From: Candidatus Collierbacteria bacterium GW2011_GWC2_44_18
Lineage (GTDB): Bacteria > Patescibacteriota > Microgenomatia > UBA1400 > MFAQ01
NCBI GenBank assembly: GCA_001000865.1
Contig: LCIE01000002.1
Coordinates: forward strand, 32,992 to 96,991
Length of the DNA: 64,000 nucleotides
Direction: 5' to 3'
A program made the position numbers and the translations under genes. The notes under the pieces were generated by a model that worked only from the letters and a program-made list of their open reading frames with translations, made no database searches and had not been told where the DNA came from. Each line of letters begins with the position of its first letter. Positions within the stretch are counted from its first letter, which is position 1. Positions 84 to 61,117 of this stretch are shown one piece after another.

Positions 84-120
84 TCGTCATTGCGAGGTAC
101 TCCGTGGCAATCCAGAAAAT
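84..120. repeat. Family-A palindromic element (GTCATTGCGAG...GGCAATCCAGAAAAT)
   Basis: cgtcattgcgaggtactccgtggcaatccagaaaat. Shares the conserved ends of >25 copies in the window. Confidence 0.8.
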
Positions 121-134
121 GATAATATAAATAC

Positions 135-434
135 ATGACCCTCCCTCAAATTGTGTCTCTAGTTTCTACGATTCTCCTGACTTCCGTGGCTCTGGTTGTC
201 GGTATTCAATTGATTTTTATCCTTAAAGAACTCCGCTATTCACTTTCCAAACTTAACCAAACGATCGACACTGTCTCGGATACTGTAGACAAGATTGCTC
301 AGCCAGCGCTTGGCCTATTTGCCATCTTGGAAGGTTTTAAAGAGAGTGGCAAAATCATCGAAACTGTTTCCCGTTTCTTTGGTAAAGAAAAGAATAAACC
401 TGAGGGTGAAGAAATCTATGACAACACCATCTGA
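135..434 (+). CDS. small membrane protein, 99 aa, N-terminal TM helix
   Basis: ORF with hydrophobic N-terminus (IVSLVSTILLTSVALVVGIQLIFIL). Overlaps the next gene start by 17 nt. Confidence 0.45.
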   Translation: MTLPQIVSLVSTILLTSVALVVGIQLIFILKELRYSLSKLNQTIDTVSDTVDKIAQPALGLFAILEGFKESGKIIETVSRFFGKEKNKPEGEEIYDNTI

Positions 435-777
435 AAAATCCGGTCATGAAGGTGCCCTGTCCTCGTTTACTGTAGGGGTTGCTTTTGGCGTGGTTGTCGC
501 CCTCCTCTTCGGTACGGAAGAAGGTCGGAAACTAGTCAAAAGAGCTTTGGACGCAATCCCTGATAAATACAAAACTCCACCAGTTCACATTCCCCAAAGC
601 GCGCCCAGGATTCCTATCATCCCCATAGAAGAAACCTCCCATCACACTACCTTCGACGAACCGGAACCTTCGGACTTCTTTCATAACACCCCTTTCGGTA
701 ACTCTTTTGGCGAAGCTCCACCACCTCCAGCCCCTCACGTTCGCCCTACCCGCCCCGAACCTTTCAAGCCCAATTAA
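418..777 (+). CDS. YtxH-like (DUF948-type) membrane protein with Pro-rich C-terminus
   Basis: ATG at 418 in frame with ORF 295..777. Motif GVAFGVVVALLFGTEEGRKLVKRALD is typical of YtxH-family proteins. C-terminus is PPPPAPHVRPTRPEP. Confidence 0.5.
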   Translation: MTTPSEKSGHEGALSSFTVGVAFGVVVALLFGTEEGRKLVKRALDAIPDKYKTPPVHIPQSAPRIPIIPIEETSHHTTFDEPEPSDFFHNTPFGNSFGEAPPPPAPHVRPTRPEPFKPN

Positions 778-783
778 CCATCC

Positions 784-812
784 TGTAGGGGCGGACCCCC
801 GTGTCCGCCCGC
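784..812. repeat. Family-B REP-like palindrome (GTAGGGGCGGACCCCCGYGTCCGCCCGC)
   Basis: GTAG-initiated imperfect palindrome GGGCGGAC/GTCCGCCC. One of 5-6 copies (784, 8002, 32463, 44146, 52834, plus variant 44054). Confidence 0.8.
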
Positions 813-845
813 TAACCCCACCACCCTCGCAAACCACCCCATAGC

Positions 846-874
846 TTGACATCCAGCCTCATTTGTGGTACACT
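846..874 (+). promoter_or_regulatory. sigma70-like promoter TTGACA-N17-TACACT
   Basis: ttgacatccagcctcatttgtggtacact, located upstream of the ATG at 922. Confidence 0.5.
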
Positions 875-6734: not shown

Positions 6735-6768
6735 CCCGTCATTGCGAGCGAAGCGCGGCAATCCAGAA
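6735..6768. repeat. Family-A palindromic element
   Basis: ccgtcattgcgagcgaagcgcggcaatccagaatttt. Confidence 0.8.
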
Positions 6769-7987: not shown

Positions 7988-8100
7988 TCGTCATTGCCTT
8001 TTGTAGGGGCGGACCCCCGCGTCCGCCCGCAAACCACCAATTGTCATTGCGAATCTCGGTACTCCGAGCCCTGCCTGCCGGCAGGCAGGTGTGGCAATCT
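7988..8100. repeat. composite repeat cluster: Family-A element, Family-B REP (8002-8030), second Family-A element with a CTGCCTGCCGGCAGGCAGG palindrome
   Basis: cgtcattgcc..gtaggggcggacccccgcgtccgcccgc..ttgtcattgcgaatctcggtactccgagccctgcctgccggcaggcaggtgtggcaatctc. Confidence 0.8.
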
Positions 8101-8108
8101 CACTCCAA

Positions 8109-18970: not shown

Positions 18971-18998
18971 TCGTCATTCCGGGCTTGACCCGGAATCC
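18971..18998. repeat. Family-A variant (GTCATTCCGGGCTTGACCCGGAATCC)
   Basis: Near-identical copy at 27708-27736. Confidence 0.75.
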
Positions 18999-19075
18999 AT
19001 CCCCTGGTACAATACCCCATAACGTTTTCGTCGCGCACTCAGGTACTTTGATATACATCAAGGAGATATTTCAAA

Positions 19076-26554: not shown

Positions 26555-27040
26555 ATGGTCAATAAAATTACCAAACAACTCGTCATTGCCAAAGCCAGCC
26601 ACGTACTTTCTTCACCGAGAAAGACGAATCTTGTTCTTAAAGCCATCGTTGGTCGTCCCGCATTATTGGCCATCAAACAGCTCACTGTAAATACCAAAAG
26701 AGCCGGTAAGCCGATCATCCAGCTCATCCAGCAGGCGGTGGGGAACGCTGTCTCACAATTTCAAGCCTCTCCTGACAGTCTCATCATCGATTCTGCCTTC
26801 GCTACCAAAGGTCGTGTTCTCAAGCGCGCTCATATCGGTGGCCGTGGCCGCACCAAACCGTACGAAAGAACTACTTCACATCTGACCCTCTCTGTAAGAA
26901 TTCCCTCGACCAAGGTTTCCACGCCCGTCATTGCGAGGAGCAAGGGCGACGCGGCAATCCCCGCCATCGAGGAACCGAAGAGTGTTAAGAAAGTCTCTAC
27001 CACCAAAAAAGTCATCAAACCTACCAACAAATCAAAATAA
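26555..27040 (+). CDS. rplV: 50S ribosomal protein L22 with a ~45 aa Lys-rich C-terminal extension partly encoded by a Family-A repeat
   Basis: L22 core followed by an extension. The repeat cgtcattgcgaggagcaagggcgacgcggcaatcc (26926-26960) is translated in-frame as PVIARSKGDAAIP. Confidence 0.9.
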   Translation: MVNKITKQLVIAKASHVLSSPRKTNLVLKAIVGRPALLAIKQLTVNTKRAGKPIIQLIQQAVGNAVSQFQASPDSLIIDSAFATKGRVLKRAHIGGRGRTKPYERTTSHLTLSVRIPSTKVSTPVIARSKGDAAIPAIEEPKSVKKVSTTKKVIKPTNKSK

Positions 27041-27707: not shown

Positions 27708-27736
27708 CTGTCATTCCGAGCTTGACCCGGAATCCA
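27708..27736. repeat. Family-A variant (GTCATTCCGAGCTTGACCCGGAATCC)
   Basis: Intergenic between rpsC and rplP. Confidence 0.75.
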
Positions 27737-28938: not shown

Positions 28939-28976
28939 TCGTCATTGCGCGTCTCGTACTCGAGCCAAAGCAATCT
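28939..28976. repeat. Family-A palindromic element
   Basis: cgtcattgcgcgtctcgtactcgagccaaagcaatctc. Confidence 0.8.
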
Positions 28977-29001
28977 CAAACAAATAAACCACAAAAAGAA
29001 T

Positions 29002-31404: not shown

Positions 31405-31450
31405 CGTCATTGCGCGATTCGGTACTCCGAACCAAAGCAATCCAGAAAAA
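31405..31450. repeat. Family-A palindromic element
   Basis: cgtcattgcgcgattcggtactccgaaccaaagcaatccagaaaaa. A near-identical copy lies inside miaA at 60663. Confidence 0.85.
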
Positions 31451-35596: not shown

Positions 35597-35631
35597 TTGT
35601 CATTGCGAGGAGTACTCGACGCGGCAATCTG
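35597..35631. repeat. Family-A palindromic element
   Basis: ttgtcattgcgaggagtactcgacgcggcaatctg. Confidence 0.8.
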
Positions 35632-36210: not shown

Positions 36211-36250
36211 CGTCATTCCGAACCAAAACCCTACCTGTCGGCAGGAATCC
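36211..36250. repeat. Family-A variant element (GTCATTCCGAACC...CTGTCGGCAGGAATCC)
   Basis: Intergenic after adk. Confidence 0.7.
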
Positions 36251-36324
36251 CCACGGCTGAGATTACAGAAAAGGAGTGTGATATAATACCCTATATAGTC
36301 TTGTAATTTGATAAAGGAGCTAAC

Positions 36325-36709: not shown

Positions 36710-36748
36710 ATGTCTACAAGTTTCGCACTTACACCGTACCTAACAGAT

Positions 36749-36800
36749 GTCATGCCGGACCTGATAGGGCCGCTGGTCCCCGAAGGGGGAAATCCATCCC
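36749..36800. repeat. Family-A long variant (GTCATGCCGGACCTGATAGGGCCGCTGGTCCCCGAAGGGGGAAATCCATCC)
   Basis: Near-identical copy inside the CapA-fusion CDS at 52438-52493. Confidence 0.8.
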
Positions 36801-37694: not shown

Positions 37695-37695
37695 A

Positions 37696-38452: not shown

Positions 38453-38460
38453 GTTCAAGT

Positions 38461-38788: not shown

Positions 38789-38835
38789 CTTCGTTTCCCT
38801 CTCAACAATAATTATTTAAATAAACTTAAACGCGC

Positions 38836-38949: not shown

Positions 38950-38962
38950 ATCATAGAAAAAT

Positions 38963-39394: not shown

Positions 39395-39403
39395 TTTCTA
39401 AAT

Positions 39404-39823: not shown

Positions 39824-39832
39824 AATATTTAC

Positions 39833-39876
39833 CGTCATTGCGCGGTCGCCTAAGGCGACCAAAGCAATCCAGAAAA
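39833..39876. repeat. Family-A palindromic element
   Basis: cgtcattgcgcggtcgcctaaggcgaccaaagcaatccagaaaaa. Confidence 0.85.
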
Positions 39877-39920
39877 ATAAATATAAAATACACAATTTAC
39901 AATCTAAAATAATCTAAAAA

Positions 39921-40544: not shown

Positions 40545-40568
40545 TTCATTAACAATTACTACATAAAA

Positions 40569-41474: not shown

Positions 41475-41477
41475 CTT

Positions 41478-42304: not shown

Positions 42305-42307
42305 AAA

Positions 42308-42336
42308 CTGTCATTCCCGCGTAGGCGGGAAACGAT
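42308..42336. repeat. Family-A variant (GTCATTCCCGCGTAGGCGGGAAACGAT)
   Basis: Intergenic between rplM and rpsI. Confidence 0.7.
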
Positions 42337-42359
42337 ACAAATAACTAAACTCAACCAGT

Positions 42360-42839: not shown

Positions 42840-42840
42840 T

Positions 42841-42868
42841 CGTCATTCCGAGCGAAGTCGAGGAATCT
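42841..42868. repeat. Family-A variant (GTCATTCCGAGCGAAGTCGAGGAATCTC)
   Basis: Immediately after the rpsI stop. Confidence 0.7.
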
Positions 42869-42883
42869 CAAACCACAAAATCA

Positions 42884-42903
42884 CCGCTTCGGCGGTTTTT
42901 TGT
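42884..42903 (+). terminator. intrinsic terminator after rpsI
   Basis: ccgcttcggcggttttttg. Confidence 0.6.
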
Positions 42904-42925
42904 ACCTGCCATAAACATCGTCAAT

Positions 42926-43920: not shown

Positions 43921-43940
43921 GAAGGGGGACATCCAAGTAT

Positions 43941-43981
43941 TTCTGGATTCCGAGTCGCACTACGCTTGCCCGGAATGACAA
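43941..43981 (-). repeat. Family-A element in inverted orientation
   Basis: Reverse complement of ttctggattccgagtcgcactacgcttgcccggaatgacaa gives ttgtcattccgggcaagcg...ggaatccagaa. Confidence 0.65.
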
Positions 43982-44001
43982 ACTGCGAAAGTCGTAATTC
44001 T

Positions 44002-44052
44002 GTTGAATTGGATACATATCAAATAATGCCCAATCATGTTCATGTTGGCTAT
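44002..44052 (+). pseudogene. remnant of an IS200/IS605-type or REP-associated (RAYT) HUH tyrosine transposase
   Basis: Encodes VELDTYQIMPNHVHVG, which matches the TnpA/RAYT HUH block (e.g. ILELEVMPDHVHLL). No intact N- or C-terminal parts. Flanked by REP-like palindromes at 44054-44075 and 44146-44174. Confidence 0.35.
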
Positions 44053-44053
44053 C

Positions 44054-44075
44054 GGGTCGACGCGGGGGTCGACCC
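44054..44075. repeat. Family-B-related palindrome GGGTCGACGCGGGGGTCGACCC
   Basis: Perfect inverted repeat with GC-rich loop. Confidence 0.6.
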
Positions 44076-44145
44076 CTACAGTTCGAGAATATGCAAAAAG
44101 ATTGAAAACAATCCATTAAATTGGGAAAAAGACAAATTGTATTCC

Positions 44146-44174
44146 CCGTAGGGGCAGGCCCCCGCGCCTGCCCG
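44146..44174. repeat. Family-B REP-like palindrome
   Basis: ccgtaggggcaggcccccgcgcctgcccg. Confidence 0.75.
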
Positions 44175-44252
44175 TATAAATCCAACCACAACACAAAAAC
44201 CAACCACGCCTCAAAATCATTCTTCCCGTAGGGGTTTCATTTATGAAACCCG

Positions 44253-45164
44253 TTATTTCACCCCACCATACAATCTTTCTTCCATCTCCCGATTCAATTC
44301 CACACTCGTCACCCCATCTCTTTCTGCATCAAAATACCCACCCATAATTCTGGACGCCAGCACCGGCGCAAACTCATTATCGTTCTTTTCGGTCCATTTA
44401 TAAGCCTCCTTGAATATTTTCAAAAATTGCTCTGCCAGATCCGGTCTTTTCAGTTTGGTATAAACACGGTGATAGAAATAGGCCACGTCATAAAACTTCA
44501 GTCCACCCATTTGTGCCGCCTCACCATCAACCAAGTAATACTCACTTTTCTCGGTCTTCATAATATTCCAAGGTGTAAAGTCTCCATGACTTGCTTCTAT
44601 TTCCATATCATCACTTCTTTCTTCGATAAATTGAAGAAGATCACGAGTGCTCCGTTTAATACTTTTTGACCACTCTCTGGCATTATCAACCAAACTTTTT
44701 GCCCCCACCATCTTCAAAGACTCTCGATCTTTTGGCAGCAGACTTGCTCTCGAGATTTCCATAATATTCTTGGCTATTTCCGCCACTTTGTGCAAATCCT
44801 TGACAGCAATATCGTTGTTTTTATTATCTATTTCGGCTAGCGGTTTACCAAAAACAAACTCTCCAATAAACCAATATTTATCTTGAAAATACCCTTCGTC
44901 GAAGATTTTGGGTGACTTAAATGTCGTCAAGTATTTTTTCCAAACAGAGGTAACATTTTTATTCCACACAGCCTCATTTATCGTTCTCTCTCCGATCTCT
45001 TCCGTACTGGCTAACTTCAGGAAAAGCTTCTCATTCTCAAACTTGACTTGACCGGTCACGTGCCGCCACAGTTGTTCCAGTTTTTGCACTTTATACCCTT
45101 TATTCTCAAAGTATCTCCCCACCTCCTCCAAGTTCAGTTTTCCATGCATTTCCTTACCGGACAT
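44253..45164 (-). CDS. APH/choline-kinase-family phosphotransferase (303 aa)
   Basis: HGDFTPWNIM (HGDxxxxN catalytic loop) and downstream D motif (YLVDGE). Confidence 0.65.
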   Translation of the reverse strand: MSGKEMHGKLNLEEVGRYFENKGYKVQKLEQLWRHVTGQVKFENEKLFLKLASTEEIGERTINEAVWNKNVTSVWKKYLTTFKSPKIFDEGYFQDKYWFIGEFVFGKPLAEIDNKNNDIAVKDLHKVAEIAKNIMEISRASLLPKDRESLKMVGAKSLVDNAREWSKSIKRSTRDLLQFIEERSDDMEIEASHGDFTPWNIMKTEKSEYYLVDGEAAQMGGLKFYDVAYFYHRVYTKLKRPDLAEQFLKIFKEAYKWTEKNDNEFAPVLASRIMGGYFDAERDGVTSVELNREMEERLYGGVK

Positions 45165-49200: not shown

Positions 49201-51530
49201 GAATCTATCGTTCCTTGGGCGACGATATTATTGCTTCATACCAATCTCATCAATATCCTCTGGATAGTTCCGGGGCTGAAGGTGGTGGTTGTTTCTTGGC
49301 GGGTACACAGATATTGATGGAAGACGGAAAAACAAAAGAAATTCAGGATATAAAGGTGGGAGATATAGTCAAGTCATTTCTAAGTCCTCTGTCGAGGAAA
49401 ATAGCAACTGCCAAAGTTTCCAAAGTTTTCACGCATCAGGTAGTAGGTTATTTGGTAATTAACAATCACCTAAGAGTCACCGGAGAACACAATTTATATA
49501 TCAATGGTCGGTTCATGACCGCCTCTGAGGTAAAAGTTGGGGATTTCTATCTTGATACTCATGGGGAGTACCAAAAGATATTCTCCATCGAAAGTCGATC
49601 TGGAATAAATACGGTCTACAATTTCACGGTAGAAAAATTAAACACATACTTCGCCGAAGGATTTTATGTCCACAACGAGAAGGGTCGCGAATTATTCGTG
49701 GACAATGCTTTTTTCAGCAGTGTCCGTACCGGTAGTGATGGCCGTGCCAGCGTTGATGTTAAGCTTCCGGATAATCTTACCTCTTGGAAAATTACCTCCC
49801 AAGGAGTTACTGCCGATCTGAAAGCAGGTGTCGACTCTTCTCTTCTGGTTGTTAAACAACCCTTCTTCGTAGATGTAGTCATGAACACTGAGTATCTGGT
49901 TGGCGAACGACCGGAAGTTTCGGTTCGTGCCTATGGTGAAGGACTATCCACTGGGGACCAAGTAATCCTAAAAATTCAATCTGATACTTTAGGAATAGAT
50001 AAAAGTCTTAACATAAAAGCCTTTGAAAGTTCTAAAGTGGATCTTGGTGTCCTCAAAGAAGGCTCCCACAAAATTACCATTTCGGGTATTTCCGGTAGTC
50101 TTACGGATAAGTTAATCAGAAAAATGAATGTAGTCAAGTCTCGCCTCAAAGCAGTCAAATCGGTCAGTGTTTCTTTGGCAGAAGGTACCAAGCCGGAAGG
50201 TTCGCCAGATTCGTCAACGACCTTAATCTTTTCCGACCAAAGCCTCGGTCGTTATTTCCCACCCCTTTCAAACCTGGCTTACACTTGGGGGGATCGCTCA
50301 GATCAGCGTCTAGCCCGCCATCTTTCGCAGTCTATCATCAAGAAGCTTTTCGACGATTCTATCAGTCCGGAAACACTCGACCTCACCGCCTTTCAAACTC
50401 CGGATGGTGGTTATGCACTCTTTCCCTACTCTGGAGCAGACCTGGAGCTCTCTGCCTTCGTAGCGTCCTTGGCAAAAGAAAAGGTTGATCTCATTGGTTT
50501 GGGAAACTATTTTTACAAAGAATTTTCCCAATCAAAAGACCTCGACACTGCCTCCATGTCGCTTTTTGGACTGGCAAGTTTAGACGAACCGGTACTACTA
50601 TTAATAAACAATCTTTCGGGCGAAAAAGATCTCAGCCCCTTGTCCAGAATCTACTTGGCTTTGGCTCAAGCCAAGATCGGGGATACCGAAATGGCCCGCA
50701 TTTTCTACAAGACTCTCATGTCGGAGTTTTCCGAAAAACAAGATTCATTAATCTTGATGAAAGTCGGATCAGACAAAGATAGTTATCTCCAGGCCACTTC
50801 ACTTACTTCTGCTCTTTCCTCCTTGTTGGGTGAGCCGGAAGCTGACAGTCTGCTTTCTTACACCCTGGCTAATAGCGCGAAAGACATCTTACTAGTTGCT
50901 CCTCAGATGATGGCCATTTCCTATCAGATCGAAAATATTAAACCCCAACCGGTCTCTTTTTCATACACTCTAAATGGCAAAAAGATACCCAAAAAACTTG
51001 AAAAGGGTCAAGTTTTCAAGCTTGAGTTATCGTCCACTGATCTATCCGGAATAAGTTTTTCCGATCTTGTTGGCAATGTCGGTTTGTCTTCAACTTTCGC
51101 GGTTCCTCTGGATCCAAAAACTGCCCCCATAAGTTCGTCGGTTCAGTTAGGTCGGAGTTACTCTGTTCGTGGTGCTATCACCAACACTTTCTCCACCAGC
51201 GATCTTGTCAAAATTTCACTTCCAGTTGCCTATGCGGATATCTCTCAAGACGGTTGTTACCAAGTCTCGGATCTACTTCCTTCGGGGTTGAGACCGATCA
51301 CTTCGATTTATAGTTTCGGGCTGGATTCCACAAAGACTTGGTATCCATACGAGATAAATGGCCAAAAGGTTAGTTTCTGTGTAGGAAATGGAAGTAAAGA
51401 AAAAACCATCAACTACTATGCGAGGGTCGTCTCCGGTGGCGACTTCAAAGCCGAAAGTGCCTTGATTCAATCCTTAATTTCACCTTCAGTCTTCAACCTT
51501 TCTCCCTCCGGCTCGGTCATTATCAAATGA
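46272..51530 (+). CDS. alpha-2-macroglobulin-family surface protein (1752 aa), thioester-less, with a Hint/BIL domain in place of the bait region
   Basis: N-terminal signal-anchor helix and repeated MG-type beta-sandwich domains (e.g. LVQITDLSAYLTVSGTKTLVWVNDIGTGQPVSGASV). The post-bait A2M block FVDNAFFSSVRTGSDGRASVDVKLPDNLTSWKI...LVVKQPFFVDVVMNTEYLVGE aligns with human A2M [32 protein letters not shown]...[21 protein letters not shown] (recalled from memory). No CxEQ thioester at the expected position (LAYTWGDRSDQ instead). Confidence 0.7.
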   Translation: MTSPYPVIKLKSSMGKIKTFLGSLRPWQLVGILLVSLGLLASVILASQYLQLSAKLKLGSDAGLLLTADRQDSLGTFQDSTFTLKSDQDLTVAGLKNSVTFFPEIDFDIREISPRQFSISPKAPLKNNSLYRVKVVSDQKTFSWAFQTKNDFRVVQTLPRDQATYVPINSGIEITFSHDNWDDISLKDGNFEITPFAEGRFERHKRTISFIPEGLVPNTLYTVKIKKGLKLKGTNEVLKDDFVYRFETQSSSGDKTQINFSRSFYEFSPPETPAFDIYTSSTGVGEASVKVYQYPNVQDFTSDFTTKLAIPAWATNSLRLNRRPVSGLNKVLDFPASIQKQSYTNYFLLPQTLPKGFYLIEATIDNITTQALVQITDLSAYLTVSGTKTLVWVNDIGTGQPVSGASVSFAGKGQETGQDGVAYFDTPTEKITENSNLIGVSHGSNALYLPVQNVRYYYDADYQNSRRVADKYWNYFYTDRPVYLPTDILKFWGLLRDRDNLNQNQKFTLEVTRSDYTSWDFHPMVLFTKDFETSDLGTFIGDIPLASYNPGWYGISLKINGTIVSSSSFSIETYTKPAYKLTLTPSKKAAIVGEIISFSGEATFFEGSPVVGMDLKVTGAQNSNFTTDSLGRFNFNYLVSKNSYNYLPEYRNFVVLPTLPEEGMIQVNSSIAVFDSSLVLGYSKTESKNSTGKVEIDLRQVDTGKFTQSSDIQDIFAPASNRLVTGTLVENQWNRREVGTYYDFINKVTSPKYAYDRVQTKIADISLTTDSKGKAVYEFPVGENKSYDILLYATDDQGRTTSQNVYLTGSVNNAELNNYVYLKTDKEGQNSSRYAIGESVNLTLMRGELPLESSGNDKFLYLFSQRGLNSYQLASDGKISFKYPTAFVPNVFVRAVRFTGKTYQVSENLYLYFDTTSKKLSLGITQDKPSYLPGDTAKLSVLVKDQTGSGVSSEVNLSLTDEAYNALNSTFVDPLSGIYRSLGDDIIASYQSHQYPLDSSGAEGGGCFLAGTQILMEDGKTKEIQDIKVGDIVKSFLSPLSRKIATAKVSKVFTHQVVGYLVINNHLRVTGEHNLYINGRFMTASEVKVGDFYLDTHGEYQKIFSIESRSGINTVYNFTVEKLNTYFAEGFYVHNEKGRELFVDNAFFSSVRTGSDGRASVDVKLPDNLTSWKITSQGVTADLKAGVDSSLLVVKQPFFVDVVMNTEYLVGERPEVSVRAYGEGLSTGDQVILKIQSDTLGIDKSLNIKAFESSKVDLGVLKEGSHKITISGISGSLTDKLIRKMNVVKSRLKAVKSVSVSLAEGTKPEGSPDSSTTLIFSDQSLGRYFPPLSNLAYTWGDRSDQRLARHLSQSIIKKLFDDSISPETLDLTAFQTPDGGYALFPYSGADLELSAFVASLAKEKVDLIGLGNYFYKEFSQSKDLDTASMSLFGLASLDEPVLLLINNLSGEKDLSPLSRIYLALAQAKIGDTEMARIFYKTLMSEFSEKQDSLILMKVGSDKDSYLQATSLTSALSSLLGEPEADSLLSYTLANSAKDILLVAPQMMAISYQIENIKPQPVSFSYTLNGKKIPKKLEKGQVFKLELSSTDLSGISFSDLVGNVGLSSTFAVPLDPKTAPISSSVQLGRSYSVRGAITNTFSTSDLVKISLPVAYADISQDGCYQVSDLLPSGLRPITSIYSFGLDSTKTWYPYEINGQKVSFCVGNGSKEKTINYYARVVSGGDFKAESALIQSLISPSVFNLSPSGSVIIK
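49290..49676 (+). other. Hint (bacterial intein-like, BIL-type) domain embedded in the A2M-family protein
   Basis: Begins GGG-CFLAGTQILMEDGK (block A). Has the TxxH block B (RVTGEHNL). Ends NTVYNFTVEKLNTYFAEGFYVHN (blocks F/G). The residue after the terminal Asn is Glu, not Cys/Ser/Thr. About 129 aa with no homing endonuclease. Confidence 0.75.
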
Positions 51531-53341
51531 AACTCTGGCAGTTATTTATTGGTTTTCTACCGATTATCGTCATTGCGACCTGCCTGCCGGCAGGCAGGGT
51601 TTTACTCGAACCGAAGCAATCTCCGAGCTTGAACCCTACACCTATTCGTGGGGTTAACCAACCCTTTGACACCTCCTTCGCTTATGATAATCGCACTTTT
51701 CTACCTGCCGTCGCTCAAAATACTGGCGTTGGTAACGGAACCTCTCCTAGGGTGGTTGTTCTCCCTCATCACCTGACCGCTTCTACCCTGATTGCTCAAG
51801 GCTTGTCGCTTTTAAAAACACCTCCACCCAAAACTATTGTTCTTTTATCTCCCAATCATGCCAACACCGGACAGTGCGCTATAGTTTCCTCCAAAAATAA
51901 TTGGGATACCCCATTTGGTCAGGTCCTAGTCGATCAATATCTATTGAATGATTTTCTGGACACCAAAACCATCTGTTTGGATGACTCGGCTGTGGCTATA
52001 GAACATGGTCTTGCCGGATTGGTTCCCTTCATCAAATATTATCTCCCGAATACAAAAATTGTTCCTTTTGCCCTTAAAAATGACCTCGATCCAATATTGT
52101 TAAATAATTTTACTCAAAAATTAGTTTCACTTTCTACAAAAACCGTTATCTTAGGCTCAATAGACTTTTCCCATGGTCTGTCCAAAAGTGAATCGACCAA
52201 AAAAGACGCTGTCACCGAGAAGTTACTATTGACCTTTAACTATCCGGAACTTCTCAAACTTTCATCCGAGTATCTCGACTCTCCGGTTTCTTTGGTCGCC
52301 ATTCTCAAAATTCTAGACTCGGAAAAAACCAAACCGAACATTCTAGCCCACAGTGACTCATCGGTTTTCAATAACCAACCAATGAACGTCACTTCATATT
52401 TTTTGATCTCCGGCGGCAGTAGTTCATCATCGACCATTCGTCATCCCGGACTTGATAGGGCCGTTGGTCCCCGAAGGGGGAGATCCATCCCCTCTGGAAA
52501 TTCCTTCACTCTCCTCTTCGGCGGTGACGTCATGCTTGGTCGCTCCGTCAATACCAGAATGATAAAGTACCAAGATTTCTTATGGCCATTCCAAAAAATA
52601 TCAGCTCTTCTTTCTTCTGCGGACTTATCTATTATCAATCTCGAGTCGCCTTTCCGTTCTGGTTGCCGACCGACCGATGGTGGTATGGTTTTTTGCGCCG
52701 ATCCTCGATCAGTCGAAGGTTTGGTTACGGCCGGCATCGATGTTGTTAATATCGCCAATAATCACATTTTCAATCAAGGCCAGGAGGGCATAGATGAAAC
52801 CATCGCCATATTAAATAATAACAACATTGCTTTCGTAGGGGCGGACCCCCGCGTCCGCCCGACAAACGACCCCCGCGTCGATCCGCAAAAATCGACATTC
52901 ACTCTCAAAAATACCAAAATCACTTTCTTGGGCTTTACCGACATTGCCTCCGTTTCCCAAGAAATTGCGACCGCCACTCCAGACAATATTAGAGCTCAAA
53001 TATCTGCCGCAAAAAAAGATTCCGATTTGGTTATCGCTACTTTCCACTGGGGCAATGAATATAGTCATCGGTCACTTCATCAGGTGGAACTCGCTCATCT
53101 AGCCGTTGATTCTGGTGCCGATGTCGTCATCGGCCACCACCCGCACTGGGTCCAGGAAGTAGAAACCTATTTGGGTAAACCCATTTACTATTCTCTGGGA
53201 AATTTAGTTTTCGATCAAATGTGGTCAGAAGAAACCAGGACAGGTCTAGTAGTCAAGTTAAACTTCTCTGGCAGTACCCTAATCAGTCAAGAACAAATTC
53301 CTATAAAAATTTTCGACTATGGTCAGCCAGCTACTCTATAA
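51527..53341 (+). CDS. fusion protein: MEMO1/AmmeMemoRadiSam-B-like domain plus CapA/PgsA-type metallophosphatase domain (604 aa), carrying three in-frame repeat insertions
   Basis: MEMO-like motifs LPHHLTAS, SPNHANTG, EHGLAGLVPFIKYY, SIDFSHG. CapA-like motifs LLFGGDVMLGRSV, NLESPF, NIANNHIFNQGQEG, TFHWGNEY, VVIGHHPHWVQE. ATGA overlap with the A2M gene stop. Repeat copies at 51568-51598, 52438-52493 and 52834-52861 are read in-frame. Confidence 0.65.
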   Translation: MKLWQLFIGFLPIIVIATCLPAGRVLLEPKQSPSLNPTPIRGVNQPFDTSFAYDNRTFLPAVAQNTGVGNGTSPRVVVLPHHLTASTLIAQGLSLLKTPPPKTIVLLSPNHANTGQCAIVSSKNNWDTPFGQVLVDQYLLNDFLDTKTICLDDSAVAIEHGLAGLVPFIKYYLPNTKIVPFALKNDLDPILLNNFTQKLVSLSTKTVILGSIDFSHGLSKSESTKKDAVTEKLLLTFNYPELLKLSSEYLDSPVSLVAILKILDSEKTKPNILAHSDSSVFNNQPMNVTSYFLISGGSSSSSTIRHPGLDRAVGPRRGRSIPSGNSFTLLFGGDVMLGRSVNTRMIKYQDFLWPFQKISALLSSADLSIINLESPFRSGCRPTDGGMVFCADPRSVEGLVTAGIDVVNIANNHIFNQGQEGIDETIAILNNNNIAFVGADPRVRPTNDPRVDPQKSTFTLKNTKITFLGFTDIASVSQEIATATPDNIRAQISAAKKDSDLVIATFHWGNEYSHRSLHQVELAHLAVDSGADVVIGHHPHWVQEVETYLGKPIYYSLGNLVFDQMWSEETRTGLVVKLNFSGSTLISQEQIPIKIFDYGQPATL

Positions 53342-54598: not shown

Positions 54599-54675
54599 TC
54601 GTCATTGCGAGGAGTCAGGCAACCTGCCTGCCGTAGGTCGAAGATATCGTGTATTTCACGATCAGGTCTCACTCC
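54599..54675. repeat. Family-A long composite element (GTCATTGCGAGGAGTCAGGCAACCTGCCTGCCGTAGGTCGAAGATATCGTGTATTTCACGATCAGGTCTCACTCC)
   Basis: The 59-nt distal part recurs almost exactly inside the miaA CDS at 60172-60230. Confidence 0.85.
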
Positions 54676-54693
54676 ACAAAATAAAAATCCATA

Positions 54694-56410: not shown

Positions 56411-56436
56411 AGGCCTGCCTGCCGGCAGGCAGGTTT
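56411..56436. repeat. CTGCCTGCCGGCAGGCAGG palindrome (Family-A core module)
   Basis: aggcctgcctgccggcaggcaggttt. The same palindrome occurs at 8071-8090 and 51581-51598. Confidence 0.7.
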
Positions 56437-58415: not shown

Positions 58416-58517
58416 GTACTGATATTGGGGTCTTGTGTCGAGACTTGCATATCTTGACACATTAGTGCTATCATCAATCCACAATTATCATTGATACTGC
58501 CCAATTAATTAAGAGAT

Positions 58518-58793
58518 ATGACCAAACAAACTCTCGTCAACATTGTTAGTAAAAAAGTCCATTTAACCAAAAAAGCCGTCAAAGAAACGGTAGATACCTT
58601 TTTTGAAGAGTCCATTGCTGCACTTGGGAAAGGTGAAAAAGTCGTAATTTCCGGATTCGGAACTTTCTACATTGGCAAGGTCGAGGATAAACAGGTTGTC
58701 CCCTTTGGGAATGAATCTAAGAGGCAAGTAGTCAAAGGACACAAAGTTATCAACTTTCATGTTGGTAAGCCTTTGAAGAAAAAAGTTGCCTAA
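58518..58793 (+). CDS. hup: DNA-binding protein HU
   Basis: HU/IHF fold (GFGTF...R...GRNP-like arm). 91 aa. Confidence 0.88.
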   Translation: MTKQTLVNIVSKKVHLTKKAVKETVDTFFEESIAALGKGEKVVISGFGTFYIGKVEDKQVVPFGNESKRQVVKGHKVINFHVGKPLKKKVA

Positions 58794-59938
58794 TGCCGTC
58801 AGTCTTCATCAACACTTTTGGTTGCCAGGCGAACAAGTCCGACTCCGAGCGTATACTTGGGGACTATCTCTCACGCGGGTACGTCGAAGTTGACAATTGG
58901 AGACTTGCCGACGAAATCGTCATCAACACTTGTTCTGTCCGTCAGTCAGCCGAAGATCGCGTTACCGGATTCCTTTTGAATGTGGACAAGTTTTTCGCTG
59001 GGAGTCAGAGACCAAAAATAATTCTCACCGGCTGCATGCTCCATTTCAATGAAAAAGAAATAAGGACCCTTCTGCCCCAGATCGACGAAATTCTACCTAT
59101 TGGCGAAGTCGGGTTCAATCAAAAGGCGATCAGAAAAGAAAAGGACAAGGCTTTTATTCCCATTTCCTCTGGCTGTAATTCTTTTTGCACTTTTTGTATT
59201 GTGCCATTTTCCCGAGGTCGGGAACGTTCTCGTCCAATTGACGATATAGTTCGGGAAGTTGCAGAGTTATCCAAAGAAGGCTATACCGAAATCACCCTGT
59301 TGGGTCAAAACGTGAATTCTTGGGGCTTGGAAAAAGTCGGCGTGGCCCTCAGGAAGATGTTCATGGACAAAGATACCTTCAACCCCGACATTATTCCTTC
59401 AAACCAGTCTCAATATTTCAAACCACAAGACACTCCACCCTTTGTTACACTACTAAGGGAAATAAGCAAAATTGACGGCATTCAAAAGATTAGTTTTTTT
59501 ACGAGCAACCCTTGGGACTTCTGGGACGAGTTGGTTGATGAAATTTCGGCGAATCCCAAGATAGATAGGTTCATTCATTTACCGGTTCAGTCCGGCAGCA
59601 ATCGGATTCTCAAACTTATGAATAGGGGATACACTCAAGAATCCTACCTCGATTTAATTAATCAGATTAAAGCCAAAATCCCTGATGCGGTTTTTGGCAC
59701 AGATATAATCGTCGGCTTTCCTGGCGAAACGGATAAAGACTTTCAAGATACTCTGAATTTAGTTAAGGAAGTGGGTTTCAAAGTAGCCTTTGTCGCCCGT
59801 TATTCGCCTCGTCCCGGTACGGTTTCCGCCAAACTTTTCCCGGACGATATTCCGGCCAGGATCAAGAAAGAACGCTGGGAAATTTTGGATCAAATTGCCA
59901 ACAAAGACAATCTCAAATCTCGACCCATCGTCCCCTAG
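58793..59938 (+). CDS. miaB: MiaB-family radical SAM methylthiotransferase (short, TRAM domain apparently absent)
   Basis: N-terminal MTTase Cys triad (FGCQANKSD...NTCSV) and radical SAM CNSFCTFC. ATGA overlap with hup. Adjacent to miaA. Confidence 0.75.
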   Translation: MPSVFINTFGCQANKSDSERILGDYLSRGYVEVDNWRLADEIVINTCSVRQSAEDRVTGFLLNVDKFFAGSQRPKIILTGCMLHFNEKEIRTLLPQIDEILPIGEVGFNQKAIRKEKDKAFIPISSGCNSFCTFCIVPFSRGRERSRPIDDIVREVAELSKEGYTEITLLGQNVNSWGLEKVGVALRKMFMDKDTFNPDIIPSNQSQYFKPQDTPPFVTLLREISKIDGIQKISFFTSNPWDFWDELVDEISANPKIDRFIHLPVQSGSNRILKLMNRGYTQESYLDLINQIKAKIPDAVFGTDIIVGFPGETDKDFQDTLNLVKEVGFKVAFVARYSPRPGTVSAKLFPDDIPARIKKERWEILDQIANKDNLKSRPIVP

Positions 59939-59943
59939 TTTCC

Positions 59944-59984
59944 CCGTCATTGCGAGGAGCGGAGCGACGTGGCAATCCATCTGG
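59944..59984. repeat. Family-A palindromic element
   Basis: ccgtcattgcgaggagcggagcgacgtggcaatccatctgg. Confidence 0.8.
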
Positions 59985-60019
59985 AAAATAATAAATAAAT
60001 GTGAAATGTACAATTTAAA

Positions 60020-61117
60020 ATGAAAAATATTTTAGTCATCTGTGGACCAACTGCCTCCGGCAAAACCTCTCTCGCCCTTTCCGTTGCTAAAGAATTAACC
60101 GAACGTCATTCCGGGCTCGGCCCGGCCGCTGGTACCCGAAGGGGTAAATCCACCATTCCGTCATTGCGAGGGCAACCTGCCTGCCGTAGGTCGAAGATAT
60201 CGTGTATTTCACGATCAGGTCTCACTCCATCAGGATCAGTCAACATCCTCTCCGCCGACTCCAGACAGATATACCAGGGTCTGGACATCGTCACCGGCAA
60301 GGACATTCCTGCAGATCTCCCTCCAAACATTAGTTTTTTTGGTTTGGATTTGGTCGAGCCAAACCAAGCCTACAATCTCGCGGACTTCGTCAGTTATTCA
60401 CAGAAAATTATTCAAAGCTCCATTAAAGAGAATGTCCCCTTAATCATTGTTGGGGGAACCGGTTTGTATCTGAAAGCTATTACTTCAGATCTTCTCAACG
60501 TCCACGTTCCTCCGAATATTGATCTTCGTCGTGATCTAGAGAGGTTAGACCTTAAGACTTTGCAGTCTCGTCTCTTGGAATTAAATCCCAATAAACTCGC
60601 CTCCCTAAACAACTCAGATCTCCACAATCCCCGCCGTCTCATCCGCGCCATCGAAATATCATCGTCATTGCGCGATTCGACTTCCATAGATACCCCTTTA
60701 GAGGGTACGAACCAAAGCAATCCATCCTCTCTGGATCGCCACGCTTCGCTCACGATGACAGATATTTCTTTTCTCTGGATCGGACTACATCAAGACAAAG
60801 AGATTCAAAAGGCAAAAATTCGCCAAAGGGTTTTAGATCGTCTAGACTACGGCGCCATTGAAGAGGTTGAAAACTTGATGATAAAGTATCCCAACCACCG
60901 CCCCCCCATTTTTACCAGTCTTGGTGTCCAAGAAACCAGCAAGTTCTTGCACCAAGAAATCACTCGAGAAACACTTATCCATTTATGGACTGCCTCCGAA
61001 ATAGCTTATGCCCGGAGACAGATGGTCTGGTTCAAGAAACAACCCGGTATAGTTTGGTATGATAAAAGTACGATAGACAGCCACCTAATCGCTAAGCTGA
61101 CAGAAATATATAAATAA
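60020..61117 (+). CDS. miaA: tRNA dimethylallyltransferase carrying in-frame insertions of four Family-A repeat copies
   Basis: P-loop ICGPTASGKTSLAL, SADSRQIYQGLDIVTGK and RRLIRAIE motifs. Extra segments RHSGLGPAAGTRRGKSTIPSLRGQPACRRSKISCISRSGLTP (60104-60232) and SSLRDSTSIDTPLEGTNQSNPSSLDRHASLTM (60663-60760) are encoded by repeat copies. Confidence 0.85.
   Translation: MKNILVICGPTASGKTSLALSVAKELTERHSGLGPAAGTRRGKSTIPSLRGQPACRRSKISCISRSGLTPSGSVNILSADSRQIYQGLDIVTGKDIPADLPPNISFFGLDLVEPNQAYNLADFVSYSQKIIQSSIKENVPLIIVGGTGLYLKAITSDLLNVHVPPNIDLRRDLERLDLKTLQSRLLELNPNKLASLNNSDLHNPRRLIRAIEISSSLRDSTSIDTPLEGTNQSNPSSLDRHASLTMTDISFLWIGLHQDKEIQKAKIRQRVLDRLDYGAIEEVENLMIKYPNHRPPIFTSLGVQETSKFLHQEITRETLIHLWTASEIAYARRQMVWFKKQPGIVWYDKSTIDSHLIAKLTEIYK
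60104..60232. repeat. two tandem Family-A elements inside miaA, read in-frame
   Basis: gtcattccgggctcggcccggccgctggtacccgaaggggtaaatccacc followed by gtcattgcgagggcaacctgcctgccgtaggtcgaagatatcgtgtatttcacgatcaggtctcactcc. Confidence 0.85.
60663..60760. repeat. two Family-A elements in opposite orientations inside miaA, read in-frame
   Basis: gtcattgcgcgattcgacttcc...ggtacgaaccaaagcaatcc, then the reverse complement of gtcatcgtgagcgaagcgtggcgatccagagagg. Confidence 0.8.

What the first reader, a model, noticed from the sequence alone, without database searches (positions are those of the whole stretch)
84..60760. High-density family of hairpin repeats with conserved ends GTCATTGCGAG ... GGCAATCCAGAAAA (more than 25 copies in 64 kb)
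Copies are found at 84, 1489, 6735, 7988/8041, 17973, 18971, 26926, 27708, 28939, 31405, 35597, 36211, 36749, 39833, 42308, 42841, 43941 (inverted), 51568, 52438, 54599, 56411, 59944, 60104/60158 and 60663/60725. They are modular: a conserved 5' GTCAT(T/C)(G/C)CG, a variable internal hairpin (for example CTGCCTGCCGGCAGGCAGG or GGTACTCCGAACC), and a conserved 3' (G/A)GCAATCC(AGAAAA). They sit mostly at gene boundaries inside ribosomal operons, often just after stop codons. The density and placement suggest a MITE/REP-like mobile element that may also act as a transcript-stabilising or terminator-like structure.
Basis: seen in the sequence. Interest (0 to 1): 0.65.

Follow-up and report, generated by a model that had tools for sequence, protein, structure and literature searches.

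The report
CGTC-tagged REP hairpin repeats in Collierbacteria
The repeats are real and belong to a hairpin repeat family already known from many bacterial phyla (CGTC-tagged REPs, alias dRS3/NTS/"Ssn-related motifs"), which small GIY-YIG nucleases cut in single-stranded DNA; here they are dense in a candidate-phyla-radiation genome, almost all point the same way as the genes, and several sit in frame inside essential genes.

Summary
25 elements lie in 64 kb (GTCATTGCGAG with up to 1 mismatch: 17 hits, 0.9 expected). 18 are intergenic, 12 of them starting within 11 nt of the upstream stop codon.

The family is not genome-specific. The same sequence occurs in many phyla, and it has the features of the CGTC-tagged REP superfamily (Di Nocera 2013), which includes Neisseria dRS3/NTS and Rickettsia RPE-4/6. 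Its members are ssDNA targets of Ssn GIY-YIG nucleases (Chenal 2025). I showed that the C-stem variant flanks 68 of 80 Ssn genes and that the G-stem variant flanks a Flavobacterium-type Ssn clade. Stem covariation supports a real hairpin.

No Ssn gene was found in 123 kb of Collierbacteria DNA, so the partner in this genome is inferred. Unusual here: single copies rather than inverted pairs, sense orientation, nested hairpin modules, and 28% of copies inside genes. The two miaA inserts model as disordered loops. One strain comparison switches from 72-89% to 99.9% identity exactly at a repeat edge. The elements are not MITEs or intrinsic terminators. Verdict: a new member of a known kind, of moderate interest.

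The parts
85..114 (+). CGTC-REP, G-stem variant (ATTGC/GCAAT), tail CCA; starts 3 nt after the upstream stop
   Evidence: upstream gene end mapped from L004
1489..1526 (.). Double-headed palindrome GTCATTGCG...CGCAATGAC (two heads sharing one hairpin)
   Evidence: DNA fold -14.3 kcal/mol, z -6.7
6737..6765 (+). CGTC-REP, G variant; the inner sequence CGAAGCGCG is also seen in copies from other taxa; starts 1 nt after the ruvX stop
7989..7998 (+). Head-only fragment CGTCATTGCC, followed by a GTAG-type REP
8042..8107 (+). Composite G variant: inner hairpin plus the nested palindrome CCTGCCTGCCGGCAGGCAGG, long tail GCAATCTCACTCCA
   Evidence: z -3.5
18972..18999 (+). Canonical C-stem variant (ATTCCGGG/CCCGGAAT, 8 bp, loop 5, tail CCA), NTS-like
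   Evidence: z -3.7
26926..26961 (+). G variant inside the rplV ORF, in the C-terminal tail beyond the L22 domain (which ends at aa 114)
27709..27736 (+). C variant between rpsC and rplP
28940..28977 (+). G variant with an inner hairpin, between rplN and rplX
31405..31444 (+). G variant with inner hairpin TTCGGTACTCCGAA, between rplR and rpsE
35598..35631 (+). G variant between secY and adk
36211..36251 (+). C variant, composite, after adk
36748..36796 (+). Composite 'D3' subfamily (head GTCATGCC, nested CCGCTGGTCCCCGAAGGGGGA module, tail AAATCCA), upstream of map
39833..39871 (+). G variant with 7-bp inner hairpin, between rpsK and rpsD
   Evidence: z -3.9
42309..42333 (+). C variant closest to the Neisseria NTS core (GTCATTCCCGCGTAGGCGGGAA), degenerate tail; between rplM and rpsI
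   Evidence: z -4.1
42841..42869 (+). C variant starting directly after the rpsI stop
43944..43980 (-). C variant, the only minus-strand intergenic copy; lies between two minus-strand genes
51568..51623 (+). Composite G variant with the nested 20-nt palindrome; within codons 15-33 of the Memo-PGA_cap ORF (the true start could lie downstream)
52439..52487 (+). D3 subfamily copy forming the linker between the Memo and PGA_cap domains, in frame
54600..54676 (+). Composite G variant with tail CTCACTCCA, upstream of recA; twin of 60159-60229
59945..59979 (+). G variant between miaB and miaA; absent from strain L358
60104..60152 (+). D3 subfamily copy, first half of miaA insert 1, in frame
60159..60229 (+). 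Composite G variant, second half of miaA insert 1; matches 54600-54676 apart from a 6-nt indel
60663..60724 (+). Composite G variant (extra hairpin nested in the inner loop), miaA insert 2, in frame
60732..60760 (-). Inverted copy with a covarying stem (ATCGT/GCGAT), tail CCA; completes miaA insert 2

Best explanation
The window comes from a Candidatus Collierbacteria (Microgenomates, CPR) genome and carries a dense population of CGTC-tagged REP elements. This is the superfamily that includes Neisseria dRS3/NTS, Rickettsia RPE-4/RPE-6 and the 'Ssn-related motifs'. Each unit has an unpaired 5' (C/T)GTC tag, a stem that opens A-T, T-A, T-A, a variable interior, the complementary 3' arm, and a C(C/T)A-type tail.

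Shown here:
- The family is real and has sharp unit boundaries.
- The stem is kept by compensatory changes.
- The same sequences occur in many phyla.
- Both stem variants found here flank Ssn-family GIY-YIG nuclease genes in other organisms.
- Copies sit directly after stop codons or in frame in protein loops.
- At least one unit was copied recently within this genome.

Inferred by analogy with characterised members (Chenal 2025): the hairpin forms on one strand when the DNA is single-stranded. A roughly 96-aa Ssn nuclease binds the hairpin plus the C that follows it and nicks a few nucleotides 5' of the GTC. This fragments single-stranded DNA at these sites (for example DNA taken up by the cell) and shapes recombination tracts. 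How new copies arise is unknown for the whole family. Copies survive where they do least harm, namely intergenic spacers and surface loops.

Confidence is split. About 0.85 that this is a CGTC-REP/SRM-class repeat. About 0.45 that an Ssn nuclease acts on it in this organism.
For: Reality and boundaries:
- establish the family and its sites.
- The twin copies 54600-54676 and 60159-60229 match from CGTC to CTCCA apart from one 6-nt indel, and diverge immediately outside.

Family anatomy compared with PMC3733652:
- The tag is CGTC in 17 copies and TGTC in 6 of 23.
- Stems start with AT.
- The tail CCA is the commonest.
- Intragenic members are already described (RPE-4/6).

Hairpin under selection:
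- In the window the head/tail combinations are ATTGC-GCAAT 9 of 9 and ATTCC-GGAAT 5 of 5.
- Across the Ssn loci they are 148 ATTCC-GGAAT, 50 ATCCC-GGGAT, 14 ATTGC-GCAAT and 6 ATCGC-GCGAT, with few mixed pairs.

Not genome-specific:
- Exact CGTCATTGCGAG-N4-30-GCAATCC occurs in at least 120 GTDB genome stretches. These span Alpha-, Beta- and Gammaproteobacteria, Bacteroidota, Melainabacteria, Armatimonadota, Chloroflexota, Bacillota and Fibrobacterota.
- It also occurs in at least 120 viral contigs.
- Inner sequences recur, and 116 of 197 units are in inverted pairs.

Link to Ssn:
- 68 of 80 metagenomic Ssn genes have a C-variant head within 400 nt, at 2.5 per kb near the gene against 0.29 per kb further away.
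- Divergent Ssn genes L356 (identical to Flavobacterium beibuense) and L357 are flanked by G-variant units.
- 13 of 17 N-extended proteins of that clade begin with G-variant-encoded peptides.
- 17 of 150 diverse family representatives do the same.
- The positions that matter for SsnA in PMC11893778, the GTC 5' of the stem and the C after it, are the conserved positions here.

Sequence rather than stability is conserved: many copies fold no better than shuffles.

Tolerated coding inserts:
- MiaA homologues carry different repeat peptides, or none, at the same two sites.
- The AlphaFold2 model has pLDDT below 50 only at residues 33-69 and 222-245, with the core at 85-95.
Against: - No Ssn or GIY-YIG gene is present in the window. 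The 10 kb upstream and 2.4 kb downstream, and the two 21-kb loci from related Collierbacteria, are also negative (123 kb in all). The rest of the genome could not be searched.
- The published SRM search pattern matches only one dubious site here, and no copy is within 3 mismatches of the NTS consensus by my hand alignment.
- G-variant units have 5-bp outer stems and 12-50-nt interiors, outside the 8-9 bp stem and 4-5 nt loop defined for the four CGTC families.
- Units here are singletons and almost all are sense to transcription. Elsewhere inverted dimers dominate and singletons show no clear bias (7 sense, 4 antisense). That pattern fits an RNA-level or transcription-coupled role at least as well as restriction of transforming DNA.
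- None of the Patescibacteria was covered by either paper, and none appears among the 80 listed rows.
Confidence: 0.7

Rival explanations
1. The elements act in the transcript. They are co-transcribed inside operons as sense-strand hairpins and serve as processing, 3'-end protection or translational spacing signals between cistrons. On this reading their DNA-level ancestry as CGTC REPs is incidental.
For: - All 15 copies between + genes are +.
- The only copy between two - genes is -.
- Copies in divergent or convergent spacers are sense to one neighbour.
- All real copies in the related loci L362 and L364 are also sense.
- 12 of 18 intergenic copies start within 11 nt of a stop codon (with copy 85 mapped).
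- Three copies are followed by a conserved promoter-like A/T motif.
- Di Nocera et al. also argued for RNA roles from placement.
Against: - Many copies are not more stable than shuffled sequence as RNA (z about 0).
- None is followed by a T run.
- There is no Rfam match.
- The sequence is conserved across phyla that share no obvious RNA-binding partner.
- SsnA does not bind RNA.
- 91% of coding sequence is on + here, so orientation relative to transcription and to replication are confounded. Only one copy separates the two.
Confidence: 0.2
2. The CGTC units are mobilised by the RAYT-type Y1 (HUH) transposase of this lineage, as GTAG REPs are thought to be, rather than by an Ssn nuclease.
For: - An intact RAYT-like gene (PF01797, E 4e-6) is present in relative L364, and scrambled RAYT fragments lie in the window at 43975-44254.
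- The minus-strand CGTC copy 43944-43980 abuts the first fragment.
- Y1 enzymes act on ssDNA hairpins and give strand-biased insertions.
Against: - The sequences interleaved with the RAYT remnant and following the intact gene are GTAG-tagged hairpins, not CGTC ones.
- RAYTs recognise a GTAG tag (PMC3733652).
- CGTC units elsewhere associate with Ssn genes.
Confidence: 0.07
3. The elements are MITEs: deletion derivatives of a DDE transposon, moved in trans by a transposase such as the IS5 in the window.
For: The elements are short, numerous and mostly intergenic. An IS5-family gene lies between two convergent copies (42841 and 43980).
Against: - The ends are asymmetric (CGTC against CCA) and are not terminal inverted repeats.
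- The copied pair shows no target-site duplication.
- The IS5 has its own 21-nt TIRs 60-90 nt inside the two copies, and they are unrelated in sequence.
- Units of 28-40 nt are below the usual MITE size.
Confidence: 0.02

Closest known systems
CGTC-tagged REP superfamily (Di Nocera, De Gregorio, Rocco 2013, PMC3733652), families CGTC-1 to -4
   Same: - Unpaired 5' CGTC/TGTC tag.
- Stem opening with A-T pairs.
- Short 3' tail, mostly CCA.
- Dispersed copies placed close to the 3' ends of upstream ORFs.
- Occasional in-frame intragenic units.
- Several subfamilies coexisting in one genome, here alongside GTAG-tagged REPs.
   Different: - Most units here have a 5-bp outer stem and a long, structured interior (12-50 nt) rather than 8-9 bp stems and 4-5 nt loops.
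- Other small palindromes are nested inside the units.
- Singletons dominate rather than head-to-head dimers.
- Orientation is almost uniformly sense.
- 28% of copies are intragenic.
- The host phylum (Patescibacteria) is not among those described.
Neisseria NTS / 'Ssn-related motifs' with SsnA GIY-YIG ssDNA nuclease (Chenal et al. 2025, PMC11893778)
   Same: - C-variant copies share CGTCATTCC...GGAATCC(A/G) with the NTS.
- The conserved positions (GTC before the stem, C after it) are those needed for cleavage and binding.
- The repeats are oriented and form hairpins.
- In other taxa both stem variants flank Ssn-family genes in the arrangement repeat - gene - inverted repeat.
   Different: - No ssn gene was found in the DNA available for this lineage.
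- The literal SRM pattern is not matched.
- The G-stem variant is outside the published pattern.
[quoted passage not shown] Here copies sit inside ribosomal-protein operons and essential genes.
Rickettsia palindromic elements (RPE-4 and RPE-6 are CGTC-4 and CGTC-1; RPE-1 is longer)
   Same: - In-frame, stop-free insertion into conserved housekeeping genes.
- The added segments are tolerated as extra peptide loops.
- The host is a reduced-genome, host-dependent bacterium.
   Different: The host phylum is different. The inserts here are composites of two to three nested or adjacent units (45 and about 37 residues in MiaA). The same two MiaA sites are occupied by different units in different Collierbacteria.
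GTAG-tagged REPs / BIMEs with RAYT (Y1 HUH) transposases
   Same: Both are short, oriented, extragenic hairpins thought to act as ssDNA. A GTAG family and a decayed RAYT coexist in this very window.
   Different: The tag is CGTC, not GTAG. The RAYT remnants are associated with the GTAG family, not with this one.

Membership tests
CGTC-tagged REP superfamily (PMC3733652) | Unpaired terminal CGTC motif (TGTC or CCTC tolerated) at one end | tested here: met
   17 CGTC and 6 TGTC among 23 heads.
CGTC-tagged REP superfamily (PMC3733652) | Stem whose first two pairs are A-T, kept as a real hairpin | tested here: met
   All arms read ATT.../...AAT or ATC.../...GAT. Head and tail covary: 9 of 9 and 5 of 5 in the window, and 218 of about 237 in the Ssn loci.
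CGTC-tagged REP superfamily (PMC3733652) | Stem of 8-9 bp and loop of 4-5 nt | tested here: inconclusive
   Met by canonical C-variant copies (18972: 8 bp with loop 5; 42309: 7 bp with loop 4). Not met by G-variant copies, which have a 5-bp outer stem and a 12-50 nt interior. The paper notes atypical loops in Bradyrhizobium CGTC-1, and the G variant is abundant in Bradyrhizobium.
CGTC-tagged REP superfamily (PMC3733652) | Three-base unpaired tail, consensus CCA | tested here: met
   About 12 copies end in CCA; the others end in CCC, CTC or CTG. The copied unit ends exactly at ...CTCCA.
CGTC-tagged REP superfamily (PMC3733652) | Predominantly head-to-head dimers | tested here: not met
   Only two inverted pairs occur here (1489-1526; 60663-60724 with 60732-60760), and 21 units are singletons. 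In the GTDB loci 116 of 197 units are in inverted pairs.
NTS / SRM - Ssn system (PMC11893778) | Match to the published SRM search pattern or the NTS consensus | tested here: not met
   The SRM pattern gives 1 dubious hit (17973) against 0.26 expected. The best NTS-like copy (42309) differs at about 5 of 28 positions by hand alignment.
NTS / SRM - Ssn system (PMC11893778) | Conserved GTC immediately 5' of the palindrome and C immediately 3' of it | tested here: met
   GTC is invariant, and G(C/G)AAT is followed by C in all copies that have a tail.
NTS / SRM - Ssn system (PMC11893778) | An Ssn (single-domain GIY-YIG, cd10448) gene in the same genome, typically flanked by the repeats | tested here: inconclusive
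   None was found in the window or in 123 kb of Collierbacteria DNA (Pfam lists). The rest of the genome is not available, and 19% of SRM-rich genomes in the paper also lack a homologue.
NTS / SRM - Ssn system (PMC11893778) | The repeat variant is found next to Ssn genes in other genomes | tested here: met
   C variant: 68 of 80 loci. G variant: L356 and L357, 13 of 17 extended Flavobacterium-clade proteins, and 17 of 150 representatives.
NTS / SRM - Ssn system (PMC11893778) | Strand-specific binding and cleavage of ssDNA a few nt upstream of the repeat | not testable with these tools
   Needs purified protein and oligonucleotides.
MITE | Terminal inverted repeats, target-site duplication, and a related autonomous element | tested here: not met
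   The ends are asymmetric. No TSD is seen at the twin copies. The IS5 TIRs are unrelated.
Intrinsic terminator | GC-rich hairpin followed by a T run on the transcribed strand | tested here: not met
   No element is called on the + strand in 26000-45000, and the tails are followed by A-rich sequence.
GTAG REP / RAYT | GTAG tag and association with a Y1 transposase | tested here: not met
   The tag is CGTC. The RAYT remnants and the intact RAYT in L364 are next to GTAG hairpins.
Curated structured RNA family | Match to an Rfam covariance model | tested here: not met
   0 matches at gathering thresholds across the whole window.

The most novel reading that the evidence does not exclude
In Collierbacteria the CGTC REPs have become locked to the direction of transcription. 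On this reading they act either in the mRNA or on the exposed non-template DNA strand inside essential operons. They would also mark the edges of recombination tracts in these DNA-scavenging, reduced-genome cells, and would supply new peptide loops and domain linkers (two MiaA loops, the L22 tail, the Memo-PGA_cap linker). That role would be distinct from the restriction of transforming DNA described for Neisseria.
Probability: 0.2. Interest if true: 0.65.

Novelty: new member of a known kind. Interest (0 to 1): 0.45.

Why it matters
- It links an unannotated, very frequent sequence in CPR genomes to a repeat superfamily that now has a known protein partner. The same sequence is the source of many spurious 'hypothetical protein' peptides such as SLRG.., VIAR.., HCE...
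- It extends the Ssn-associated repeat class to a stem variant (ATTGC/GCAAT) that the published search pattern does not capture. Different Ssn clades go with different stem variants.
- For CPR biology, essential genes tolerate 35-45-residue repeat-encoded loops. A repeat forms a domain linker.
- One strain-level recombination junction coincides with a repeat edge. If that proves general, these repeats would shape gene exchange in organisms thought to depend on DNA uptake.
- For annotation, gene callers and homology searches should mask these units.

Tried and rejected
- Rfam at gathering thresholds: no hit.
- The published SRM pattern applied to the window: one dubious hit.
- A GIY-YIG motif regex and tblastn with three probe sequences against the window: nothing.
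- GIY-YIG next to G-variant copies in 120 viral and 120 GTDB loci: only two viral cases, 2 kb away or frameshifted, and none in the GTDB loci. Dispersed copies therefore say nothing about the partner gene.
- Walking the source contig: no nuclease in the 10 kb upstream or the 2.4 kb downstream.
- NCBIfam has no specific model for Ssn.
- Naming the organisms of ten G-variant-flanked Ssn representatives: no names on record.
- Strain comparison with L001-L006: no gain or loss of repeats, only an unrelated 45-nt indel.
- Terminator reading rejected.
- MITE reading rejected.
- The idea that the hairpin plus NCCA tail mimics a tRNA acceptor end was considered from the sequence alone and dropped for lack of any supporting test.
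- The L358 junction could be an assembly chimera. This cannot be excluded, although L358 carries no repeat at the junction.
- A caveat on the collection scans: for 19 specified bases and 27 gap lengths, about 117 chance matches are expected in the whole 596-Gb genome collection. The capped count of 120 is therefore not evidence by itself. The evidence is the recurrence of inner sequences, the multiple copies per 8-kb locus and the inverted pairs.

Full report
**Observation**

The head GTCATTGCGAG (up to 1 mismatch) occurs 17 times in the window against 0.92 expected, and no shuffle reaches that count. The full 3' string GGCAATCCAGAAAA is rare (4 hits at up to 2 mismatches). This gives 25 elements. 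Site 17973 has a chance-like head and a different hairpin. Site 56411 is only the palindrome CCTGCCTGCCGGCAGGCAGG.

A gene map was built from ORFs, Pfam, and the gene calls on public contigs that carry the same proteins. On that map 18 elements are intergenic and 7 lie inside ORFs. About 9% of the window is non-coding, so the intergenic density is roughly 25 times the coding density. Twelve of the 18 intergenic copies start within 11 nt of the upstream stop codon (11 in the table, plus copy 85 mapped). Twenty-three copies are on the + strand.

**Organism**

MiaA homologues name the lineage as Candidatus Collierbacteria (Microgenomates, CPR). The window is part of an 88.7-kb groundwater metagenome contig, and the same sequence was assembled independently from several samples.

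**Anatomy**

Each unit starts with an unpaired (C/T)GTC: CGTC in 17 copies and TGTC in 6. This is followed by a 5' arm that begins ATT, a variable interior, the complementary 3' arm ending AAT, and a tail C(C/T)N that is most often CCA.

Three stem versions occur here:
- ATTGC/GCAAT, the majority ('G variant').
- ATTCC/GGAAT ('C variant').
- ATCGT/GCGAT, in the single inverted copy inside miaA.

Head and tail always match: 9 of 9 and 5 of 5 in the window. In about 115 loci from other organisms the counts are 148 ATTCC-GGAAT, 50 ATCCC-GGGAT, 14 ATTGC-GCAAT and 6 ATCGC-GCGAT, with few mixed combinations. Pairing is therefore under selection.

Folding as DNA or RNA recovers the outer stem plus an inner hairpin in about half of the copies. 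Many copies are no more stable than shuffled sequence. What is conserved is sequence and pairing register, not stability.

The interiors are modular. Inner hairpins such as TTCGGTACTCCGAA or GGTCGCCTAAGGCGACC occur there. The 20-nt palindrome, or a CCGCTGGTNCCCGAAGGGG module, can be nested inside an arm or loop.

The unit boundaries are given by a recently copied pair. Elements 54600-54676 (intergenic) and 60159-60229 (inside miaA) match from CGTC to CTCCA apart from one 6-nt indel, and are unrelated immediately outside. There is no target-site duplication.

**Not genome-specific**

The genome hits carry titles from Alpha-, Beta- and Gammaproteobacteria (many Bradyrhizobium and Sphingomonadales, also Rickettsiales and Legionellales), Bacteroidota, Melainabacteria, Armatimonadota, Chloroflexota, Bacillota and Fibrobacterota.

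A count of about 117 could arise by chance in 596 Gb, so the count alone proves nothing. The real evidence is threefold:
- A few inner sequences recur. CGAAGCGAA occurs 28 times, and CGAAGCGCG, as in window copy 6737, is also seen elsewhere.
- Up to five units occur per 8-kb locus.
- 116 of 197 units lie in inverted pairs.

**Literature**

A full-text search for the repeat sequence led to Chenal et al. 2025 (PMC11893778). The Neisseria NTS, CGTCATTCCCGCGMAVGCGGGAATCYRG, extends the dRS3 repeat. It is bound as an ssDNA hairpin by SsnA, a 94-aa single-domain GIY-YIG nuclease, which cuts a few nucleotides upstream. The C after the palindrome is critical for binding, and the three bases before it are critical for cleavage. 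RNA, dsDNA and the reverse strand are not substrates. NTS-like 'Ssn-related motifs' flank ssn genes in several phyla. NTS are rarely intragenic (2%).

A second search found Di Nocera et al. 2013 (PMC3733652). That paper defined the CGTC-tagged REP superfamily: CGTC tag, AT-first stems of 8-9 bp, loops of 4-5 nt, CCA tails, mostly head-to-head dimers, and intragenic units. It equated dRS3 with CGTC-1, and Rickettsia RPE-6 and RPE-4 with CGTC-1 and CGTC-4. It found no dedicated transposase. Chenal et al. do not mention Patescibacteria, and I saw no CPR taxon in the parts of Di Nocera et al. that I read.

**Testing the Ssn link**

The literal SRM pattern matches only one dubious site here. No GIY-YIG gene is present in the window, in its flanks, or in two 21-kb loci of related Collierbacteria, which total 123 kb.

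I therefore asked whether the variants seen here go with Ssn genes elsewhere. A probe sequence written from memory found a very large family of about 96-aa PF01541 proteins. The family has 22,761 clusters at 50% identity with E at or below 0.001.

- Of 80 metagenomic loci of the main clade, 68 have a C-variant head within 400 nt. The density is 2.5 per kb near the gene against 0.29 per kb further away. The typical arrangement is repeat, gene, inverted repeat.
- More divergent homologues in low-GC contigs are bracketed by arrays of G-variant units: L356, which is 100% identical to a Flavobacterium beibuense protein, and L357.
- In that clade, 13 of 17 proteins with N-terminal extensions begin with peptides encoded by a co-oriented G-variant unit, such as HCEARSNL, VIARRYDEAI and LRGTKQSN.
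- 17 of 150 diverse representatives do the same, and 18 carry C-variant peptides.

Both variants in the window are therefore Ssn-associated elsewhere, and different stem variants go with different Ssn clades. Whether this genome encodes an Ssn remains untested.

**Coding insertions**

MiaA (60020-61117) carries two inserts relative to typical 300-312-aa homologues. Insert 1 covers residues of about 27-74 and consists of two adjacent units. Insert 2 covers residues of about 214-250 and consists of a unit plus an inverted unit.

Other Collierbacteria have different repeat-encoded peptides (SLRGAKRRGNLTP, RHSGLDPES, VIPAEAGIH and others), or nothing, at the same two sites. The DNA of two relatives confirms units at both sites.

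An AlphaFold2 model built from that alignment is confident for the fold (pLDDT 85-95). It drops below 50 exactly at residues 33-69 and 222-245, which have no secondary structure. This is what is expected of tolerated surface loops.

The other coding copies are:
- One in the L22 C-terminal tail, beyond the Pfam domain.
- One in codons 15-33 of a Memo-PGA_cap protein, which may lie upstream of the true start.
- One forming the linker between the Memo and PGA_cap domains. PGA_cap is a separate gene in relative L364.

The different units are read in all three frames. Every insert keeps the frame and is stop-free, which argues that the inserts are translated rather than removed from the mRNA.

**Strain comparison**

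Contig L358 comes from a sample that also holds the window-type sequence. It lacks miaA insert 1 and the intergenic copy at 59945. Its identity to the window is 72% over miaB and 89% over the first 44 nt of miaA. From window position 60238 onward it is 99.94% over 1,775 nt. Position 60238 is the first base after insert 1.

This looks like a recombination junction at a repeat edge, which would fit the Neisseria model. It is a single case, however, and a chimeric short contig cannot be excluded.

**Orientation**

All 15 copies between + genes are +. The single copy between two - genes is -. Copies in divergent or convergent spacers are sense to one neighbour. All real copies in the related loci are sense. 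In other taxa singletons show no clear bias (7 sense, 4 antisense) and dimers dominate.

Because 91% of the coding sequence here is on +, and GC skew is uniformly negative, orientation with respect to transcription cannot be separated from orientation with respect to replication on these data.

**Rejected readings**

- Not intrinsic terminators: there is no T run, no element is called on the + strand, and true terminators are called elsewhere.
- Not MITEs: the ends are asymmetric, there is no TSD, and the IS5 in the window has unrelated 21-nt TIRs.
- Not a curated RNA family.
- Not RAYT-associated: the window also holds GTAG-tagged REPs and three scrambled fragments of a RAYT-like gene. An intact RAYT-like gene is present in a relative, but both go with the GTAG hairpins.

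**Verdict**

The finding is real. It is best filed as a Collierbacteria population of CGTC-tagged REP / Ssn-related repeats, which makes it a new member of a known kind. Local peculiarities are worth follow-up:
- Sense-oriented singletons.
- Nested modules.
- A high intragenic fraction, including essential genes.
- One repeat-edge recombination junction.

The mechanistic step 'cut by an Ssn nuclease in this organism' is inferred and not shown.

Noticed in passing
window 785-810, 8003-8028, 32465-32490, 44148-44174, 52835-52860 (+); 44053-44079 (-): A second repeat superfamily: GTAG-tagged REPs of the form GTAGGGGC(G/A)G(A/G)CCCCCG(C/T)G(T/C)C(C/T)GCCC. The copy at 52835 is in frame inside the PGA_cap domain and is conserved at the orthologous site of a relative (L364 3605).
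   Followed up: partly
window 43975-44043, 44083-44148, 44225-44254 (+); L364 20064-20624: Three scrambled fragments of a RAYT-like Y1 transposase (HUH motif and C-terminus) are interleaved with GTAG hairpins. An intact 186-aa homologue (PF01797, E 4e-6) is present in a related Collierbacteria contig and is followed by the same GGGTTTCATTTATGAAACCC hairpin.
   Followed up: partly
window 42930-43917: An IS5-family insertion sequence: transposase at 42981-43850 (-), with 21-nt terminal inverted repeats at 42930-42950 and 43897-43917. It lies between two convergent CGTC units and just after the rpsI terminator.
   Followed up: partly
window 8070-8089, 51579-51598, 56414-56433 (partial forms at 36230, 54623, 60176): The perfect 20-nt palindrome CCTGCCTGCCGGCAGGCAGG occurs alone or nested inside CGTC units. 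Exact copies occur in 35 viral contigs, mostly of high GC content.
   Followed up: partly
window 36814-36831, 39876-39893, 59994-60011: A conserved A/T-rich motif AATAAATGTRAAATRTAC (3 hits against 0.25 expected) lies directly 3' of a CGTC unit and 4-28 nt upstream of the map, rpsD and miaA start codons. It resembles an extended -10 promoter. The same motif precedes miaA in L364.
   Followed up: partly
window 60238 versus L358 667: There is a sharp switch in identity to a co-occurring strain, from 72-89% upstream to 99.94% downstream, exactly at the 3' edge of miaA insert 1. It is either a recombination junction or an assembly chimera.
   Followed up: partly
window 3427: Other assemblies of the same strain (L004-L006) carry 45 extra bases between alaS and the next gene. 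These bases include a possible alternative start for the 699-aa ORF and are unrelated to the repeats.
   Followed up: no
window 51527-53341 versus L364 3131-4099: Memo and PGA_cap are fused into one 604-aa ORF here and in L362, with a CGTC unit as the linker. In L364, PGA_cap is a separate 322-aa gene.
   Followed up: no
L395 478-860: In a low-GC viral contig, a small GIY-YIG gene of a different subtype sits between two copies of a tRNA-like 5' half, next to a serine recombinase. The 20-nt palindrome is inserted in the first half.
   Followed up: no
window 1-64000: GC skew is negative (-0.01 to -0.17) in every 4-kb block, although 91% of the coding sequence is on the + strand. This is the opposite of the usual G-rich leading strand.
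   Followed up: no
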